A stretch of 64,000 nt of DNA from Acidobacteriota bacterium (GTDB lineage: Bacteria; Acidobacteriota; Vicinamibacteria; Vicinamibacterales; Fen-181), in the NCBI GenBank assembly GCA_003170135.1, contig PMZR01000140.1:4382-68381 (forward strand), in the 5' to 3' direction. Below are positions 14,014 to 62,129 of this stretch, one piece after another; position 1 is the first letter of the stretch; every line of letters starts with the position of its first letter. The notes under the pieces are model-generated. The model did no database searches, was not told where the DNA came from, and saw nothing but the letters and a program-made list of their open reading frames with translations. A program made the translations under genes and the position numbers.

Positions 14014-14062
14014 GTCCGGAGTCCGGAGTCCGAAGTCGGAAAGTCCGGCCTCCGAGTCCTGC
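14014..14062. repeat. heptamer tandem array GTCCGGA/GTCCGAA (about 7 units, self-complementary unit)
   Basis: gtccgga gtccgga gtccgaa gtcggaa a gtccggc ctccga gtcctgc. Starts 10 nt after the ferritin stop. Confidence 0.9.
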
Positions 14063-22061: not shown

Positions 22062-22253
22062 GTGCGAGGTGCGAGGTGCGAGGTGCGACGTGCGACGTGC
22101 GACGTGCGTGCGGTGTGCGACTTGCGTCATGCCCCGGTCATCCGCACCAAGCACTCCGCACTTTGCACCGCACGGCGCACTCCGTACGACGCACTTCGCA
22201 CTTCGCACCGCACTTCGCACCGCACTTCGCACAACGCACAACGCACTCCGCAC
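22062..22253. repeat. large inverted pair of heptamer arrays (GTGCGAG/GTGCGAC left arm, NTCGCAC-type right arm)
   Basis: Left arm 22062-22126, about 9 units. Loop tcatgccccggtcatc. Right arm 22143-22253, about 15 units (gcacttc gcacttc gcaccgc acttcgc ...). Fills the gap between the permease stop (22257) and the small-ORF start. Confidence 0.95.
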
Positions 22254-22256
22254 TAC

Positions 22257-24145: not shown

Positions 24146-24196
24146 GGCGTTCTCCGGGATCGGGGGCAGGGGCGTGCGGGGGCGAGAATACCATAG

Positions 24197-24267
24197 TCGT
24201 TGGTCGTTAGTTGTTGGTTGTTGGTTGTTGGTCGGGGTCGTTGGTCGTTAGTCGGGGTCGTTGGTCG
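24197..24267 (+). repeat. heptamer tandem array TCGTTGG/TTGTTGG (about 10 units, single arm)
   Basis: tcgttgg tcgttag ttgttgg ttgttgg ttgttgg tcgggg tcgttgg tcgttag tcgggg tcgttgg. Lies in the divergent region upstream of pgsB. Confidence 0.9.
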
Positions 24268-39818: not shown

Positions 39819-39833
39819 TCGGCTAGTCGCACC

Positions 39834-39875
39834 AAGGACCAAGGACCAAGGACCAGGGACCAGGGACCAGAGACC
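39834..39875 (+). repeat. heptamer tandem array AAGGACC/AGGGACC (6 units) ending at the next start codon
   Basis: aaggacc aaggacc aaggacc agggacc agggacc agagacc, followed directly by ATG 39876. Confidence 0.95.
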
Positions 39876-41126
39876 ATGCCCATCGACACACTGTTCCTCG
39901 ACGCGGGCGGCGTCCTGGTGTTTCCGAACTGGGCGCGGGTGAGCGAGGTGCTGGCGCGTCACGGCGTCCGCGCCGATGCGCACGCGCTGGCCGCAGCCGA
40001 GCCGCACGTCAAGCGCCAGATCGACGTCGCCGACATCATCTCGACGACCGATGACAAGCAGCGCGGCTGGCGATACTTCGACTTGATCTTCGAACGGATC
40101 GGCGTCCCGTCGAGCGACGCCACCGCTGCGGCCGTAGGCGAGCTCTACCAGTATCACCAGGCGCTGAATCTGTGGGAATGCGTGCCCGAGACGGTCGAGG
40201 CGCGGCTGCGTGACCTCCGACGGCTCGGACTGCGCCTGGCGGTTGTGTCGAACGCGAACGGCCGGTTGGGCGTGGTGTTCGAGCGCCTGGGCCTCGCGAA
40301 GTACTTCGACTGCCTGATCGATTCGTTCCACGAGGGCGTCGAGAAGCCCGATCCGCGGCTGTTCGAGATCGCCTTGTCGCGCTGCGGCGCACGCGCCGAG
40401 CGCACCCTTCACGTCGGGGATCTCTATCACGTGGACGTCGTCGGCGCTCGGGCCGCGGGGCTCTCGGCGGTGCTGTTCGACGCCGCGGATCTCTATGGGG
40501 ACGTCGACTGTCCCCGCGTGCGATCGCTCGAAGACCTCGTCCGGATGCTCGGTGGGGCAGGTGGGGGCCCCGCCATCCAGGAGAAGCCCGAACGCGTGCC
40601 GTATCGTGTTACCGATCTGGCGGCGTCCTACGATCCGATCCGCACGCTGCCTGTCGCGGTGGTGCTCGACAACGTGCGCAGCGCCTACAACGTCGGCGCG
40701 TTTTTTCGGACGGCCGACGGCGTCCGGGCGGAGAAGCTATACCTGTGCGGGTTCACCGCGCGGCCGCCGCACGCAATGGTCGCCAAGACCGCGCTCGGTG
40801 CCGAGGCCTCGGTCGCCTGGCAGGGCGAGAGCGAGGCGGTTGAGATCATCCGCGCGCTGACGTCCCGTGGCTACGAGATTGCGGCCATCGAGACCAGCCT
40901 GCAAGCGGTGGATTTGTTCGAGTGGCGTCCGGCCTTCCCGGTCTGCGTCGTCTTCGGGCACGAAGTGGACGGCCTGCCACCGAAGATCCTCGACACGTGC
41001 GACGCCCGCATCCGCATACCCATGCTCGGTTCGAAGCACTCGCTCAATGTCGCCACGGCCGGGGGCGTGGTGCTCTACGAACTGCTCCGCAAATACCGGC
41101 TGCTCGGTGGCAGGGATGGCGGGTAG
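39876..41126 (+). CDS. HAD-superfamily hydrolase fused to a SpoU/TrmH-family RNA 2'-O-methyltransferase
   Basis: N-terminal DAGGVL (DxD-type motif I), VVSNANG, EKPDPRLF and GDLYHVDVVGA. C-terminal VLDNVRSAYNVGAFFRTAD, VFGHEVDGL and SLNVATAGGVVLYE SPOUT motifs. Confidence 0.8.
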   Translation: MPIDTLFLDAGGVLVFPNWARVSEVLARHGVRADAHALAAAEPHVKRQIDVADIISTTDDKQRGWRYFDLIFERIGVPSSDATAAAVGELYQYHQALNLWECVPETVEARLRDLRRLGLRLAVVSNANGRLGVVFERLGLAKYFDCLIDSFHEGVEKPDPRLFEIALSRCGARAERTLHVGDLYHVDVVGARAAGLSAVLFDAADLYGDVDCPRVRSLEDLVRMLGGAGGGPAIQEKPERVPYRVTDLAASYDPIRTLPVAVVLDNVRSAYNVGAFFRTADGVRAEKLYLCGFTARPPHAMVAKTALGAEASVAWQGESEAVEIIRALTSRGYEIAAIETSLQAVDLFEWRPAFPVCVVFGHEVDGLPPKILDTCDARIRIPMLGSKHSLNVATAGGVVLYELLRKYRLLGGRDGG

Positions 41127-51048: not shown

Positions 51049-52155
51049 ATGCACATCGGCGTTCCGCGCGAGCGGCACGTGGACGAACACCGCGTCGGCC
51101 TGACGCCGGCCGGCGTCGAGCTGCTGACCGCCGCCGGGCATGTCTGCTCGGTGGAGAGCGACGCAGGCCGGGGCGCGGGCTTTTCCAGCGTCGACTACGA
51201 ACGGGCCGGCGGCCGCATCGTCTACTCGCCCGAAGAGGCGCACGGCCGAGCCGACCTCGTGTTCCGTGTCGGCCCGGTCACCGAGGACGAAGCCGCCTGG
51301 TTGCAGCCCGGCGCGATCATCGCAGGCTTCCTGCACCTGGCCGCGCGCGGACGGGCGGTCGTCGAGGCGCTCCTCGCGAAGCGCATCACCGCCATCGCGT
51401 ACGAGACCATCCAGCACGACGGCGCGCTGCCCGTGCTGACGCCGCTCAGCCAGGTGGCCGGCCGGATGGTGCCGCAGGTGGCCGCCCGGCTGCTCCAGAA
51501 CGATCACGGCGGCAAGGGGATCCTGCTCGGCGGCGTGCCCGGGGTGCCGCCGGCCGAAGTGGTCATCATCGGCGGCGGGACGCTCGGTGCCGCGGCGGCG
51601 CATTCGTTCCTCGGCATCGGCGCGACGGTGTACCTGCTGGACCGCGATCTCAGCCGCCTCCAGCACATCGACGAGGCGTGCGCCGGCGGCCGGCGGCCGA
51701 TCATGATGGTGTCGCACCCGTTCAACATCCGGAAGGCGGTGCGGTTCGCGGACGTGCTCGTCGGCGCCGTCCTCGTGCCCGGCACGCGGACGCCCATCGT
51801 GGTCACGCGCGAGATGGTGGCGTCGATGAAGCCGCGCTCCGTCATCCTCGACATCGCGATCGACCAGGGCGGGTGTGTCGAGACGAGCCGGCCCACCACG
51901 CATCGCGATCCGACGTTTGTCGAAGAAGGCATGATCCATTACTGCGTGCCGAACATGACCTCGGTCGTGGCCCGGACCGCGACGCACGCCTTCAACAACG
52001 CGATGTGGCCGTTCATGTGGGAGGTCGCGCGCGCCGGCCTGAACGATGCGCTCGCGAGCATGCCCGCCCTCAAGCAGGGCATCGCGACGCACGGAGGCCA
52101 CGTCGTGAACGCGGCGCTCGCCGCGCACCTGGGCGTGCACGAGGTGACGTTGTGA
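51049..52155 (+). CDS. ald: alanine dehydrogenase
   Basis: MHIGVPRE..HRVGLTPAGV, VIIGGGTLG Rossmann motif and DIAIDQGG. AAGGAGG RBS. Confidence 0.88.
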   Translation: MHIGVPRERHVDEHRVGLTPAGVELLTAAGHVCSVESDAGRGAGFSSVDYERAGGRIVYSPEEAHGRADLVFRVGPVTEDEAAWLQPGAIIAGFLHLAARGRAVVEALLAKRITAIAYETIQHDGALPVLTPLSQVAGRMVPQVAARLLQNDHGGKGILLGGVPGVPPAEVVIIGGGTLGAAAAHSFLGIGATVYLLDRDLSRLQHIDEACAGGRRPIMMVSHPFNIRKAVRFADVLVGAVLVPGTRTPIVVTREMVASMKPRSVILDIAIDQGGCVETSRPTTHRDPTFVEEGMIHYCVPNMTSVVARTATHAFNNAMWPFMWEVARAGLNDALASMPALKQGIATHGGHVVNAALAAHLGVHEVTL

Positions 52156-52160
52156 GCTGG

Positions 52161-53453
52161 ATGGACGAGTACCGGCGCAAGGTCGTCGGCGCCGACGAAG
52201 CCGTGTCGCACATCGAGTCGGGCCAGCGGCTGTTCTTCACCGGGAACTGCTCCATGCCGGCGCAGACGCTGGCGGCCCTGGTGAAGCGTGCCGCCACGCT
52301 GACCAACGTCGAGATCGTGCACGTCCTGACGATCGGGACCGACAGCTACGTCGCGCCCGAGATGGACGGGCACCTGCGCGTCAACACGCTGTTCATCAGC
52401 GACAACGTCCGCCGGGCGGTCAACGAGGGCCGGGCCGATTTCACGCCCGTCTTCCTGTCGGAGATCCCGGCGCTGTTCAAGAACGGGCAGCTGCCGCTCG
52501 ACGTGGCCGTCATTCACGTCACCCCGCCCGACGAGCACGGCTTCTGCTCGTTCGGCGTCGAGGTGAGCGTGACGAAGCCGGCGGCGCAGGCGGCGCGCCT
52601 GGTCATCGCGGAAGTGAACGCGCAGATGCCGCGCACGCTCGGCGACTCGTTCATCCACGTGTCGAAGCTCGACTACATCGTCCCGGTCGATTACCCGCTC
52701 ACCGAGATGCGGATGGGCGAGCCGGCGGGGCTGGCCCAGTGCATCGCCACCCACATCGCGCGGCTGATCCCCGACGGCGCCACGCTGCAGACCGGCATCG
52801 GCGCGATCCCCGACGCGGTCCTGCACCAGCTTGGCACGCACCAGCACCTGGGCATTCATACGGAGCTCTTTTCCGACGGCGTGATCGACCTGGTGGAGAA
52901 GGGCGTCATCGACGGCGAGCGCAAGTCGCTGCACCCGGGCAAGGTGATCTCCAGCTTCATGATCGGCACCAAGCGTCTCTACGATTTCGTGCACGACAAT
53001 CCGATCATCGAGATGCACCCGAGCGAATACACCAACGACCCGTTCATCGTCGCGCAGAACGACCGGATGGTGGCCATCAACTCCGCCATCGAGGTGGATC
53101 TGACCGGCCAGGTGTGCTCCGACAGCATCGGGACGCGGTTCTACAGCGGCGTGGGCGGGCAGGTGGATTTCATCTACGGGGCGTCGCGCAGCAAGGGAGG
53201 CGTGCCGATCATCGCGTTGCCGGCGACGGCGACGGTCAAGGGAGAGACGATCAGCAAGATCGTGCCGACGCTGAAGGTCGGGGCGGGCGTCGTGACGACG
53301 CGCAACCACGTGCACTACGTGGTGACCGAGCACGGCGCGGCCGACCTGTACGCGAAGACCATTCGCCAGCGCGCCCGCGCGCTCATCGACATCGCCGCGC
53401 CCGAGTTCCGCGCGGAACTCGAGGAGCAGGCGATCAGACTCAGGTATCTCTAG
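52161..53453 (+). CDS. acetyl-CoA hydrolase/transferase family protein (4-hydroxybutyrate CoA-transferase-like)
   Basis: LQTGIGAIPDAV, HTELFSDG and GSGGQVDF-like (YSGVGGQVDF) motifs. The start could be GTG 52152, overlapping the ald stop, or ATG 52161. Confidence 0.85.
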   Translation: MDEYRRKVVGADEAVSHIESGQRLFFTGNCSMPAQTLAALVKRAATLTNVEIVHVLTIGTDSYVAPEMDGHLRVNTLFISDNVRRAVNEGRADFTPVFLSEIPALFKNGQLPLDVAVIHVTPPDEHGFCSFGVEVSVTKPAAQAARLVIAEVNAQMPRTLGDSFIHVSKLDYIVPVDYPLTEMRMGEPAGLAQCIATHIARLIPDGATLQTGIGAIPDAVLHQLGTHQHLGIHTELFSDGVIDLVEKGVIDGERKSLHPGKVISSFMIGTKRLYDFVHDNPIIEMHPSEYTNDPFIVAQNDRMVAINSAIEVDLTGQVCSDSIGTRFYSGVGGQVDFIYGASRSKGGVPIIALPATATVKGETISKIVPTLKVGAGVVTTRNHVHYVVTEHGAADLYAKTIRQRARALIDIAAPEFRAELEEQAIRLRYL

Positions 53454-53455
53454 AT

Positions 53456-53532
53456 AGTCCGGAGTCCGGAGTCCGGAGTCAGGCCAAGGTCTAAGGCCCA
53501 AGGCCCAGGGACCAGGGACCAAGGACCAGGGA
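53456..53532 (+). repeat. composite heptamer array, 11 contiguous in-phase units of three unit types
   Basis: agtccgg x3, agtcagg, ccaaggt, ctaaggc, ccaaggc, ccaggga x2, ccaagga, ccaggga. Starts 3 nt after the TAG stop. Confidence 0.95.
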
Positions 53533-53545
53533 CTTCGTCTCCGTC

Positions 53546-54319
53546 CTATCTTGCGTGCACCACTAACCTCCCCGATTGCGGCCGGTTAAGGACGAGCGCC
53601 TTCAGCCGCTTCAAGATCGCCAGTGACGGCCGGTGCCGCACGTCCACCTGCGTGAATCCCGCAGCCGCCAGCATCTGCTTCATGCACTCGATGGTCGGGA
53701 TCGCCGTGAACTCGTAGCGGGTGCCTCGCTCGTGGCCGTCGCCCGGGAAGAAGCTGATGAGCGGGTAGCGCCCGTGCAGCGCGGGCACGAGCGCGTGCGT
53801 CTCGCAGACGAGCGTGCCGCGCGTGACGCCGCGCAGGCAATCGAGCACGTCGATGGGCGAGCGGAGGTGGTAGAGGACGCCGAGGAAGAGCACCAGGTCG
53901 AACTGGCCGATGACCTGCGGGTCCAGGTCCTCCGCGGCCAGGCGCATCGATTCGACCTTCGAGCCGAGCGCCGAGTGCGCCAGCAGGAAGCCGTCCTTGC
54001 CGTGCACGTCCCACGCGTAGGTGTCGATGGCCACGACGCGCGCCGCGCCCCGCCGCTCGCACTCGAACGAGAAGAACCCGTCCCAGGCGCCGACGTCGAG
54101 CACCGACTTGCCCGTCAGATCCTCGGGCAGCGAGAGGAACCGCAGCCGGCGGACAAACCGCTGGCGCACGTGCCACTCGGGCCGCGTCACCAGCCCGCCG
54201 CCGAGATCGATCGGATGGCACCACTTGATGGCGCGGACGCGGCGTTCGAGTTCGGCGCGGTCCACGTCCCCGCGCGGGGCTGCCCCAGCCGTTTGCTGCT
54301 CAATCATCCCGGGGAACAT
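53546..54319 (-). CDS. class I SAM-dependent methyltransferase
   Basis: VLDVGAWDGFFSF (motif I) and DLVLFLGVLYHL. Start ambiguous: TTG 54343, ATG 54319 or ATG 54307. Confidence 0.75.
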   Translation of the reverse strand: MFPGMIEQQTAGAAPRGDVDRAELERRVRAIKWCHPIDLGGGLVTRPEWHVRQRFVRRLRFLSLPEDLTGKSVLDVGAWDGFFSFECERRGAARVVAIDTYAWDVHGKDGFLLAHSALGSKVESMRLAAEDLDPQVIGQFDLVLFLGVLYHLRSPIDVLDCLRGVTRGTLVCETHALVPALHGRYPLISFFPGDGHERGTRYEFTAIPTIECMKQMLAAAGFTQVDVRHRPSLAILKRLKALVLNRPQSGRLVVHAR

Positions 54320-54679: not shown

Positions 54680-54691
54680 GGATTATTCCAC

Positions 54692-54832
54692 GTGCGAAGT
54701 GCGATGTGCGACGTGCGACGTGCGACGTGCGGTGCGACGTGCGAGGTGCGGTGCGACGTGCGAGCATCCCGCACGCAGTCTGCACTCGGCACCCAGCACC
54801 GCACTTTGCACCTCGCACTCCGCACTCCGCAC
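54692..54832. repeat. inverted pair of heptamer arrays (GTGCGAN x11 / NNCGCAC-type arm) between ctaE and ctaF
   Basis: Left arm 54692-54764: gtgcgaa gtgcgat gtgcgac x3 gtgcg gtgcgac gtgcgag gtgcg gtgcgac gtgcgag. Right arm 54765-54832: ...gcactttgcacctcgcactccgcactccgcac. Confidence 0.95.
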
Positions 54833-62085: not shown

Positions 62086-62127
62086 GTCCGGAGTCCGAGG
62101 TCCGAACTCGACACCGGACTCCGGACT
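62086..62127. repeat. inverted pair of heptamer arrays (GTCCGGA/GTCCGAG/GTCCGAA vs CCGGACT x2) between actC and actD
   Basis: gtccgga gtccgag gtccgaa ctcgaca ccggact ccggact. Confidence 0.9.
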
Positions 62128-62129
62128 CG

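What the first reader, a model, noticed from the sequence alone, without database searches (positions are those of the whole stretch)
53456..53532. Composite array keeps one 7-nt register across three different unit types
Eleven contiguous units (agtccgg x3, agtcagg, ccaaggt, ctaaggc, ccaaggc, ccaggga x2, ccaagga, ccaggga) stay in perfect phase from 53456 to 53532 while the unit sequence changes completely. If arrays arose only by local slippage of one seed, a phase-preserving junction between unrelated units would not be expected. This argues for selection on, or a mechanism that imposes, the 7-nt period itself.
Basis: seen in the sequence. Interest (0 to 1): 0.6.

Follow-up and report, generated by a model that had tools for sequence, protein, structure and literature searches.

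The report
Two abutting seven-base repeat arrays
The 77-base tract is two ordinary 7-base tandem-repeat runs, each attached to the end of its own gene, that touch in the gap between two converging genes; their "shared register" comes from how the tract was cut into sevens, so it says nothing new about why these bacteria favour 7-base repeats.

Summary
The letters are as described (53456-53532). They are not one composite array with three unit types. They are two unrelated heptamer arrays: (AGTCCGG)4 at 53456-53483 and (CCARGGN)7 at 53484-53533. They fill a 92-nt spacer between a convergent acetyl-CoA hydrolase/transferase gene and a methyltransferase gene.

In syntenic relatives (91-92% identical flanking protein), the first array starts at the same place, 2 nt after the hydrolase stop. 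In one relative the second lies 13 nt before the methyltransferase stop. There, 100-330 nt of REP-like repeats separate them.

"Phase" across the junction cannot be measured. In-register similarity is 1/7, no better than after deleting 1-6 nt. Any two abutting period-7 arrays parse into one register. Where a register can be defined genome-wide, it is kept more often than chance but far from always: 62% at 3 nt or less, about 30% beyond 10 nt. In the only definable register (GTCC to GGCC units), this junction is 3 nt out of phase.

The 7-nt period really is favoured: 912 blocks against about 20 at periods 4, 5 and 8, and unit families turn over at the orthologous spacer. That is the already described, still unexplained heptanucleotide-repeat class.

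The parts
52152..53453 (+). Acetyl-CoA hydrolase/transferase gene (433 aa). Its stop codon TAG is at 53451-53453.
   Evidence: Codon-model gene call. Pfam AcetylCoA_hydro plus AcetylCoA_hyd_C, E 1e-30 and 3e-65. 433-aa homologues at 85-92% identity.
53456..53483 (+). Array A: AGTCCGG x3 plus AGTCAGG. It starts 2 nt after the hydrolase stop.
   Evidence: perfect to 53480. Same start ('TAA AT AGTCCG...') in relatives L031-L035. AGTCCGG is the commonest unit of the genome, with 100 blocks that have unique flanks.
53484..53533 (+). Array B: CCAAGGT CTAAGGC CCAAGGC CCAGGGA CCAGGGA CCAAGGA CCAGGGA C. These are point variants of one unit.
   Evidence: 7.1 copies, 83% matches. Relative L033 has CCAAGGC CCAAGGA CC at the same 13-nt distance from the methyltransferase stop. 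The same unit family occurs at 39831-39876 and about 60 other blocks.
53534..53545 (.). Unique 12-nt flank (TTCGTCTCCGTC) between array B and the methyltransferase stop. It is partly conserved in relatives.
   Evidence: Hand comparison of G000 with L033 and L036: GTCTCCGTC-CTA / GTTCCCGGC-CTA / GTTCCCGTC-CTA.
53546..54319 (-). Convergent class I SAM methyltransferase gene (257 aa). Its stop is CTA at 53546-53548 on the + strand.
   Evidence: Pfam Methyltransf_9 and Methyltransf_23. Syntenic in L030, L031, L033 and L036-L039.
53452..53464 (.). Left arm of a 13-nt inverted repeat (AGATAGTCCGGAG) that overlaps the hydrolase stop.
   Evidence: I2: 85% complementary to 53539-53551. It closes the predicted spacer-spanning hairpin.
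53539..53551 (.). Right arm of the same inverted repeat (CTCCGTCCTATCT). It overlaps the methyltransferase stop.

Best explanation
The tract is the contact zone of two independent heptanucleotide microsatellites in the 92-nt 3'-3' spacer between convergent genes.

Shown:
- Array A, (AGTCCGG)n, is anchored 2 nt after the hydrolase stop.
- Array B, (CCARGGN)n, is anchored 13 nt before the methyltransferase stop.
- Both anchors are found in relatives, where REP-like elements and their 21-30-nt tandem copies lie between the arrays.
- This genome lacks those inserts, so the two arrays abut.

Inferred:
- Each array grew and diversified in place by replication slippage of 7-nt units and by point substitution of single units, followed by further slippage. 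This keeps register within an array.
- Growth is tolerated in the space after stop codons and stops at coding sequence or at the neighbouring array.
- The single register across the A|B junction is a consequence of abutment and of choosing B's unit frame from A's. It is not a preserved property.
- The genome-wide preference for 7 rather than 5, 6 or 8 most likely reflects a length-specific slippage bias of the replication machinery (the polymerase-footprint idea of Mrazek 2007), together with escape of loops longer than 4 nt from mismatch repair (general knowledge). Neither was tested here.

A role of the whole spacer as a 3' stem-loop on both convergent transcripts is possible but not specifically supported.
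For: - Sequence and TRF split the tract into two arrays.
- Junction-shift test: the real register gives 1/7 cross-junction matches, against 0-4/7 for shifted junctions.
- Orthologous spacers: L031, L032, L034 and L035 begin 'TAA AT AGTCCGG...'. L033 begins 'TAA AT AGTCCGA TGTCCGG...' and ends '...CCAAGGC CCAAGGA CC' plus 13 nt plus CTA. Between them are 196- and 421-nt spacers that hold a REP-like hairpin and 21-mer x6 tandem copies. That REP-like element has at least 14 copies in this genome.
- More distant syntenic relatives carry other heptamers at the same site: GTAGTCG, GAATTCA, GAATTGA. Only period 7 is detected in all seven spacers.
- Genome census: 912 period-7 blocks, 780 of them intergenic. 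Arrays cover 3.6-3.8% of tandem and convergent spacer bases, against 1.2% of divergent ones. 84 array edges lie at 0 nt from a stop-codon side.
- Core-to-core spacing is overwhelmingly 7 or 14 nt, with 3-20% off-phase spacings depending on family. The in-phase fraction decays with distance.
- GTCC-to-GGCC unit junctions: 6 of 13 are in the homologous register (p = 0.006 against 1/7), with graded intermediates such as AGTCCGA, GGTCCGA, AAGCCGA, ACGCCCA, AGGCCCA. This is the substitution route. The present junction is offset by 3.
Against: - No read-level or strain-level copy-number variation could be shown. The same-strain contig L030 is identical. Four independent assemblies of the L031 lineage are identical to each other. 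Slippage is therefore inferred from pattern, not observed.
- In-situ slippage from random seeds does not explain why one unit (AGTCCGG) recurs at 100 loci with unique flanks, or why 152 unit types are so unevenly used.
- In L033 the distance from the start of A to the start of B is 392 = 56 x 7 nt.
- The direction of change between G000 and its relatives (inserts never gained, or inserts lost) cannot be decided.
Confidence: 0.8

Rival explanations
1. One array diversified in place. Array B descends from array A by substitutions in register, so the shared register is inherited.
For: Elsewhere in the genome, GTCC-type arrays do grade into GGCC-type arrays in register through intermediate units (C9, C51, C56, C109, C141). 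Within array B, all variants are in-register point changes.
Against: At this junction the in-register similarity is 1/7, and the best similarity (4/7) is at a shift of 3-4 nt. In the GTCC/GGCC register the junction is offset by 3. There are no intermediate units. In L033 the two arrays sit 392 nt apart at opposite gene ends.
Confidence: 0.05
2. A ruler-like mechanism or selection fixes a single 7-nt register over the whole spacer, whatever the unit. Examples would be a protein or RNA structure read every 7 nt, or addition of whole heptamers.
For: Period 7 is strongly favoured over 5, 6 and 8 for 152 unit types. It persists at the orthologous spacer while units turn over. Units have a conserved 5-nt core plus a variable 2-nt linker (GTCCG-NN, GTGCG-NN). 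L033 has a start-to-start distance of 392 = 56 x 7 nt.
Against: - Register is not kept between arrays. In-phase fractions fall from 62% to 30% with distance.
- (GGTCGTT)n neighbour pairs are always 1 nt out of phase.
- Units of 5 and 6 nt are mixed into CGCAC arrays (TRF periods 12, 19 and 26).
- In L031, same-core arrays in this very spacer are out of register by 1.
- Perfect arrays of three or four units show no preference for whole-unit lengths (21-27 nt: 15, 16, 7, 12, 9, 12, 11).
- Spacer lengths modulo 7 differ among relatives: 1, 1, 0, 4, 0, 0.
Confidence: 0.08
3. The spacer is a functional bidirectional 3' stem-loop (terminator or mRNA stabiliser). The arrays are the material the stem is built from.
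For: - The 98-nt spacer folds into one hairpin that closes at the two stop codons: -45.2 kcal/mol (z = -3.5) on the + strand and -45.9 kcal/mol (z = -2.8) on the - strand.
- A 13-nt inverted repeat spans both stops.
- In relatives the same spacer holds inverted pairs of heptamer arrays (L031 z = -6.7, L037 z = -7.1).
- Blocks have an inverted partner within 150 nt 3.7 times more often than after shuffling unit labels among blocks (118 against 32 +/- 9).
- Arrays prefer stop-codon sides.
Against: - There is no U-tract and no terminator-like site.
- Arrays A and B are not complementary to each other.
- Genome-wide, array-bearing spacers of 60-150 nt do not fold better than array-free ones: -0.39 against -0.41 kcal/mol per nt in convergent spacers and -0.35 against -0.37 in tandem spacers, p about 0.2.
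- L036 and L038 have weak z-scores (-2.1 and -1.4).
- No RNA data could be consulted.
Confidence: 0.2

Closest known systems
Heptanucleotide long simple-sequence repeats of prokaryotes (Mrazek et al. 2007, as quoted by Rehm et al. 2015, PMC4692102)
   Same: Tandem 7-nt units are over-represented relative to other unit lengths, are dispersed over many intergenic sites, and vary between related genomes. A polymerase-footprint slippage bias has been proposed for the period.
   Different: This genome uses about 150 unit types dominated by GTCCG-NN and GTGCG-NN cores, in a 67% G+C genome that is probably acidobacterial. As far as I found, that lineage is not among those described.
GGGAATC repeats of Xanthomonas and GGGGA(C/T)T repeats of Nostoc PCC 7120 (Rehm et al. 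2015, PMC4692102)
   Same: Heptamer arrays of 2-26 units lie near stop codons and between same-direction genes, are rare between divergent genes, sometimes occur as inverted pairs, and differ in length and sequence between close species at the same gene pair. The same biases are seen here.
   Different: Those arrays have one G-rich unit per genome with G-quadruplex potential and a preference for four units. Here there are many units. Array A has no G3 tract. Array B has only three GGG tracts.
Cyanobacterial STRR heptanucleotides (Calothrix PCC 7601; cited in PMC4692102) and TAACTGA direct repeats of marine Beggiatoaceae (PMC4679880)
   Same: Several different tandem heptamers per genome (STRR), and abundant intergenic 7-nt direct repeats with variable copy number (abstract).
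   Different: The unit sequences and lineages differ. No associated alternative RNA polymerase subunit or other candidate factor was examined here.
Compound microsatellites (adjacent arrays of different motifs; general knowledge from eukaryotic SSR studies)
   Same: Two arrays of different motif lie directly next to each other. Variant motifs arise by substitution within an array and then expand.
   Different: In eukaryotes the units are usually 1-6 nt. Here both arrays have the lineage-favoured 7-nt unit, which is what creates the appearance of one register.

Membership tests
Prokaryotic heptanucleotide long SSRs | Head-to-tail tandem copies of a 7-nt unit, at least 2-3 copies | tested here: met
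   TRF: 3.6 copies at 100% matches and 7.1 copies at 83%. Lag-7 identity is 80%.
Prokaryotic heptanucleotide long SSRs | Genome-wide excess of period 7 over neighbouring periods | tested here: met
   912 blocks at period 7, against 162 (period 6), 19 (period 8), 20 (period 5) and 25 (period 4). TRF gives 1558 rows and 55 kb at period 7.
Prokaryotic heptanucleotide long SSRs | Mainly non-coding location | tested here: met
   780 of 912 blocks are mostly intergenic by my own codon-model gene calls.
Prokaryotic heptanucleotide long SSRs | Copy number and unit sequence differ between related genomes at the same gene pair | tested here: met
   Seven orthologous spacers hold at least five unit families.
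Prokaryotic heptanucleotide long SSRs | Copy-number polymorphism within a population (active slippage) | tested here: inconclusive
   L030 is identical to the window. Four assemblies of the L031 lineage are identical to each other. Read-level data were not available.
G-quadruplex-forming heptamer repeats (Rehm et al. 2015) | Four or more consecutive G3+ tracts with short loops | tested here: not met
   Array A has GG only. Array B has three GGG tracts, interrupted by one AAGG unit.
REP/BIME-type dispersed palindromic elements | A conserved imperfect palindrome of fixed length, dispersed as a unit with conserved ends | tested here: not met
   100 AGTCCGG arrays differ in length and have no shared flanks. 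A separate true REP-like element exists in the genome but is absent from this spacer.
Intrinsic (Rho-independent) terminator | G+C-rich hairpin followed by a U-tract | tested here: not met
   No terminator-like site in 53300-53700 on either strand. A hairpin is predicted but has no U-tract. The orthologue in G023 does have a classical hairpin plus T7.

The most novel reading that the evidence does not exclude
In this lineage the property maintained after stop codons would be the 7-nt periodicity itself, not any sequence.

Evidence that fits this reading:
- The same convergent spacer carries heptamer arrays in seven lineages through at least five complete changes of unit.
- In at least four of the relatives the arrays form inverted pairs that fold into stems of 5-6-bp helices interrupted every 7 nt.
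- Within one genome the units are drawn from a small vocabulary of 5-nt cores plus free 2-nt linkers, at hundreds of loci with unique flanks.

This could mean one of two things. Either a trans-acting factor reads 7-nt-spaced cores on RNA or DNA, or a dedicated process seeds and copies heptamers between loci. In both cases passive slippage would not be the whole story.
Probability: 0.12. Interest if true: 0.6.

Novelty: new member of a known kind. Interest (0 to 1): 0.15.

Why it matters
The result mainly prevents a false lead. A "single register across different unit types" looks like evidence for a molecular ruler. For abutting arrays of equal period it is automatic, and the genome-wide census shows that register is lost within tens of bases.

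What remains worth knowing is the old, unsolved question of why some bacteria favour exactly 7-nt repeats. This locus adds a clean orthologous series in which the period persists while the unit sequence is replaced. The series could be used to test slippage-bias explanations against selection explanations.

Tried and rejected
- **Whole-unit test.** Array length modulo 7 looked non-uniform. This was an artefact of the 17-nt detection threshold. For perfect arrays of three or four units the lengths are flat.
- **A-B-A sandwiches.** I looked for the same unit on both sides of an unrelated block, which would be the cleanest test of register. None exists in this genome.
- **First gene caller.** The first version picked antisense shadow ORFs. 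I retrained it on ORFs with GC1 > GC2 and high G at codon position 1.
- **Relatives in the genome set.** Same-family genomes hold only 45-46% paralogues of the hydrolase. The 75-76% orthologues in other families are not syntenic downstream: one has a classical terminator, two have no array, and one has GAATGCN arrays. Informative syntenic relatives came from metagenome contigs instead.
- **Right flank as a decayed inverted copy of array A.** Rejected. The flank next to the methyltransferase stop is partly conserved in relatives that have other units.
- **Hairpin as a general property of array-bearing spacers.** Not supported.
- **Mobile element with conserved ends.** Rejected for AGTCCGG arrays.
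- **Metagenome scan.** The scan with the gene-end pattern returned only two contigs, both identical to L031.
- **Organism name.** It was not verified. Homologues of this gene are labelled Acidobacteriota/Vicinamibacterales, but also Anaerolineae and others.

Full report
**1. What is in the sequence**

Lag-7 self-identity over 53456-53533 is 57/71 (80%). At lags 3-6 and 8-13 it is 9-43%.

Tandem Repeats Finder reports two arrays, not one: 53456-53480 (AGTCCGG, 3.6 copies, 100% matches) and 53484-53533 (CCAAGGA consensus, 7.1 copies, 83%).

There is therefore one complete change of unit, AGTCAGG|CCAAGGT.

**2. Setting**

A codon-usage gene caller trained on this genome and Pfam place the tract in a 92-nt spacer between two convergent genes.
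- An acetyl-CoA hydrolase/transferase gene lies at 52152-53453 on the + strand, with stop TAG at 53451-53453.
- A class I SAM methyltransferase gene lies at 53546-54319 on the - strand, with its stop read as CTA at 53546-53548.
- Array A begins 2 nt after the first stop.
- Array B ends 12-13 nt before the second stop.

The window is C128:4382-68381 of a 5.8-Mb draft of 141 contigs with 67.5% G+C. Homologues of this gene are labelled Acidobacteriota/Vicinamibacterales, among other names. I did not verify the taxon.

**3. Is the shared register a real property?**

For two arrays with unrelated units that touch each other, any cut into sevens that starts at the first array continues through the second. 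The second array's unit is simply read in whatever rotation results. A real continuity of phase would need similarity between A and B units in that register.
- The seven lag-7 comparisons that cross the junction give 1 match.
- After artificially deleting 1-6 nt at the junction they give 0-4 matches.
- Unit similarity by relative shift is [1,0,2,4,3,2,2] of 7.

The observed register is therefore among the worst, not the best. The only coincidence left is that the A part is 28 nt, a whole number of units. That has a probability of about 1/7, and more if one accepts TRF's end at 53480 followed by a shortened B-like unit (AGGCC-).

**4. The orthologous locus**

The flanking protein has 85-92% identical homologues on metagenome contigs. 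Their contigs keep the same gene order: alanine dehydrogenase-like gene, hydrolase, then the convergent methyltransferase.

| Locus | Identity | Spacer | Content |
|---|---|---|---|
| L030 | same strain | 92 nt | Identical to the window |
| L031 (also L032, L120, L121 from three other samples) | 91% | 196 nt | TAA AT AGTCCGG TGTCCGG TGTCCGG TGTCCGA AGTC\|GAC (TTCGGAC)x4, then two 26-nt repeats and a REP-like hairpin, then (ACATCGG ACTTCGG)x2 next to the methyltransferase stop |
| L033 | 92% | 421 nt | TAA AT AGTCCGA (TGTCCGG)x3 TGTCCGA, then a 21-mer x6, roughly 30-nt repeats x4 and a REP-like hairpin, then CCAAGGC CCAAGGA CC, 13 nt, CTA |
| L034, L035 | 92% | contigs end in the array | AT AGTCCGG AGTCCGA TGTCCGG TGTCCGA |
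| L036 | 90% | 102 nt | (GTAGTCG)n, loop, (CTACCGN)n |
| L037 | 89% | 119 nt | (GAATTCA)n, loop, (TTCTGAA)n |
| L038, L039 | 85% | 105 nt | (GAATTGA)n, loop, (TTCTCAA)n |

Three points follow.
- Array A is tied to the hydrolase stop and array B to the methyltransferase stop.
- In L033 the two arrays are about 350 nt apart (392 nt start to start). They touch only in the window's genome.
- The material between them in the relatives belongs to a dispersed REP-like family, CCGGTCTGAAGACCGG-CGGTCCCACA, with at least 14 copies in this genome.

Running the same block finder on the seven spacers detects period 7 in every one and no run at periods 5, 6, 8 or 9.

Orthologues at 75-76% identity in other families are not syntenic downstream. 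One has a classical hairpin plus T7 terminator, two have no array, and one has (GAATGCN)5 with inverted copies.

**5.

Period 7 dominates the genome.
- TRF finds 1558 rows covering 55 kb at period 7.
- My lag-p block finder finds 912 blocks at period 7, against 162, 19, 20 and 25 at periods 6, 8, 5 and 4.
- 780 of the 912 blocks are intergenic. They comprise 152 strand-collapsed unit types with a very uneven distribution.
- AGTCCGG is the commonest unit (100 blocks). ACCAGGG, AAGGACC and AAGGCCC have 32, 15 and 13 blocks.

Phase can be defined only between related units. The results are as follows.
- Same-strand block pairs whose units agree at 6/7 or better at a unique shift are in phase in 16/26 cases at a gap of 3 nt or less, 8/17 at 4-10 nt, 5/15 at 11-30 nt and 3/10 at 31-150 nt. 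The commonest failures are -1 and -2 nt.
- All seven same-unit neighbour pairs of (GGTCGTT)n or its complement are out of phase by -1. This gives the 20-nt super-period seen at 24196-24267.
- Core-to-core spacings are mostly 7 or 14 nt. The CGCAC core also has 44 spacings of 5 nt, 13 of 6 nt and 21 of 12 nt, against 560 of 7 nt. The ACCAA core has 14 of 6 nt and 27 of 13 nt, against 159 of 7 nt and 44 of 14 nt.
- In L031, two CGGAC-core arrays within this same spacer are 1 nt out of register.
- No A-B-A arrangement with an unrelated middle block exists in this genome, so that test could not be made.

Register is thus kept more often than chance at short range, as substitution within an array predicts. 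It is not imposed.

**6. The one definable register for A-to-B junctions**

Thirteen places in the genome have a run of GTCC-NNN units followed by GGCC-NNN units.
- Six are in the homologous register (p = 0.006 against 1/7). They show graded intermediates, for example C9: AGTCCGA x4, GGTCCGA, AAGCCGA, ACGCCCA, AGGCCCA x2.
- Seven are not in register, with offsets of 6, 6, 6, 3, 3, 3 and 4.
- The junction under study is one of the offset-3 cases.

In the only sense in which phase can be measured here, this junction does not preserve it.

**7. What the arrays may do**

Evidence that fits a stem-loop role:
- The 98 nt from stop to stop fold into one hairpin that closes at the two stop codons: -45.2 kcal/mol with z = -3.5 on the + strand, and -45.9 kcal/mol with z = -2.8 on the - strand.
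- A 13-nt inverted repeat spans both stops.
- In at least four relatives the spacer holds inverted pairs of heptamer arrays that give stems interrupted every 7 nt. L031's left part folds at -44.3 kcal/mol (z = -6.7) and L037 at -56.4 kcal/mol (z = -7.1).
- Genome-wide, 118 blocks have an inverted partner within 150 nt, against 32 +/- 9 after shuffling unit labels among blocks.
- Arrays favour stop-codon sides and are three times rarer in divergent spacers. Rehm et al. describe the same biases for Xanthomonas and Nostoc.

Evidence against a dedicated role:
- There is no U-tract and no terminator-like site.
- Arrays A and B are not complementary to each other.
- Array-bearing spacers of 60-150 nt fold no better per nucleotide than array-free ones.

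I therefore treat a 3' stem-loop role as possible (about 0.2) and not established.

**8. Mechanism**

- Shown: there are two separately anchored arrays, and they abut only in this genome.
- Shown: variants within each array arise by substitution.
- Shown: register decays with distance.
- Shown: period 7 persists across unit turnover.
- Inferred: the arrays grew by replication slippage in the selectively free space after stop codons.
- Inferred: the 7-nt preference comes from a length-specific slippage bias. This hypothesis is attributed to Mrazek et al. 2007 in PMC4692102. Loops longer than about 4 nt would also escape MutS, which is general knowledge and was not tested.
- Not explained: why the same few units recur at a hundred loci with unique flanks.
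- Not shown: any population-level length variation.

**9. Comparison and verdict**

The tract meets the defining features of prokaryotic heptanucleotide long SSRs: tandem 7-mers, a genome-wide excess of period 7, non-coding location and differences between species at the same gene pair. It does not meet the features of G-quadruplex repeats, REP elements or intrinsic terminators.

The phase argument offered for it is void. Earlier follow-ups in this scan reached the same general classification for other loci of this genome.

Interest is low. The orthologous series is a useful by-product.

Noticed in passing
L033:2796-3203 (orthologous spacer of a 92% relative): The distance from the start of the AGTCCGA array to the start of the CCAAGGC array is 392 = 56 x 7 nt, although about 330 nt of 21-mer and roughly 30-mer REP-like repeats lie between. 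The G000 and L033 spacers differ by 329 = 47 x 7 nt. This is a 1-in-7 coincidence. The 21-mer (3 x 7) tandem copies contribute to it.
   Followed up: partly
window 24196-24267 and six other loci of the genome: (GGTCGTT)n arrays are regularly interrupted by a 6-nt unit. All seven same-unit neighbour pairs are out of phase by -1, which gives a 20-nt (7+7+6) higher-order repeat.
   Followed up: partly
window 22151-22254, 54690-54832; genome-wide CGCAC/GTGCG-core arrays: This family mixes 5-, 6- and 7-nt units: 44 spacings of 5 nt, 13 of 6 nt and 21 of 12 nt, against 560 of 7 nt. In same-direction spacers it shows an orientation bias of the unit relative to transcription (ACGTCGC 26:6, ACCTCGC 16:4, ACATCGC 8:0). 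The AGTCCGG and AAGTCCG families show none (20:26, 16:16).
   Followed up: partly
genome-wide (100 loci), e.g. window 14014-14037, 53456-53480, 62110-62128: The unit AGTCCGG contains the 6-nt palindrome TCCGGA plus one G, so an array of it is self-complementary. It is the commonest unit, always has unique flanks, and often starts 0-3 nt after a stop codon. Why one unit recurs at so many independent sites is not explained by local slippage.
   Followed up: partly
L037:2500-2624, L038:2500-2610, L002:2800-2975: Relatives carry A+T-rich heptamers (GAATTCA, GAATTGA, GAATGCN) as inverted pairs in the same or an equivalent post-stop spacer, even though the flanking genes are G+C-rich.
   Followed up: no
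G000 contigs C17, C27, C28, C54, C56, C136 and others: A dispersed REP-like element, CCGGTCTGAAGACCGG followed by CGGTCCCACA, has at least 14 copies (3 or fewer mismatches). In the relative L033 it is tandemly amplified as a 21-mer x6 inside the orthologous spacer.
   Followed up: partly
window 53452-53464 and 53539-53551: A 13-nt inverted repeat (11/13 complementary) includes both convergent stop codons (TAG ... CTA). The predicted hairpin therefore closes exactly at the two gene ends.
   Followed up: partly
L032, L034, L035 (Logan contigs): Three short-read contigs end 30-32 nt after the hydrolase stop, inside the heptamer array. This fits assembly breaks at k-mers shared by many array loci. 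Arrays may be a systematic cause of contig ends in these genomes.
   Followed up: no
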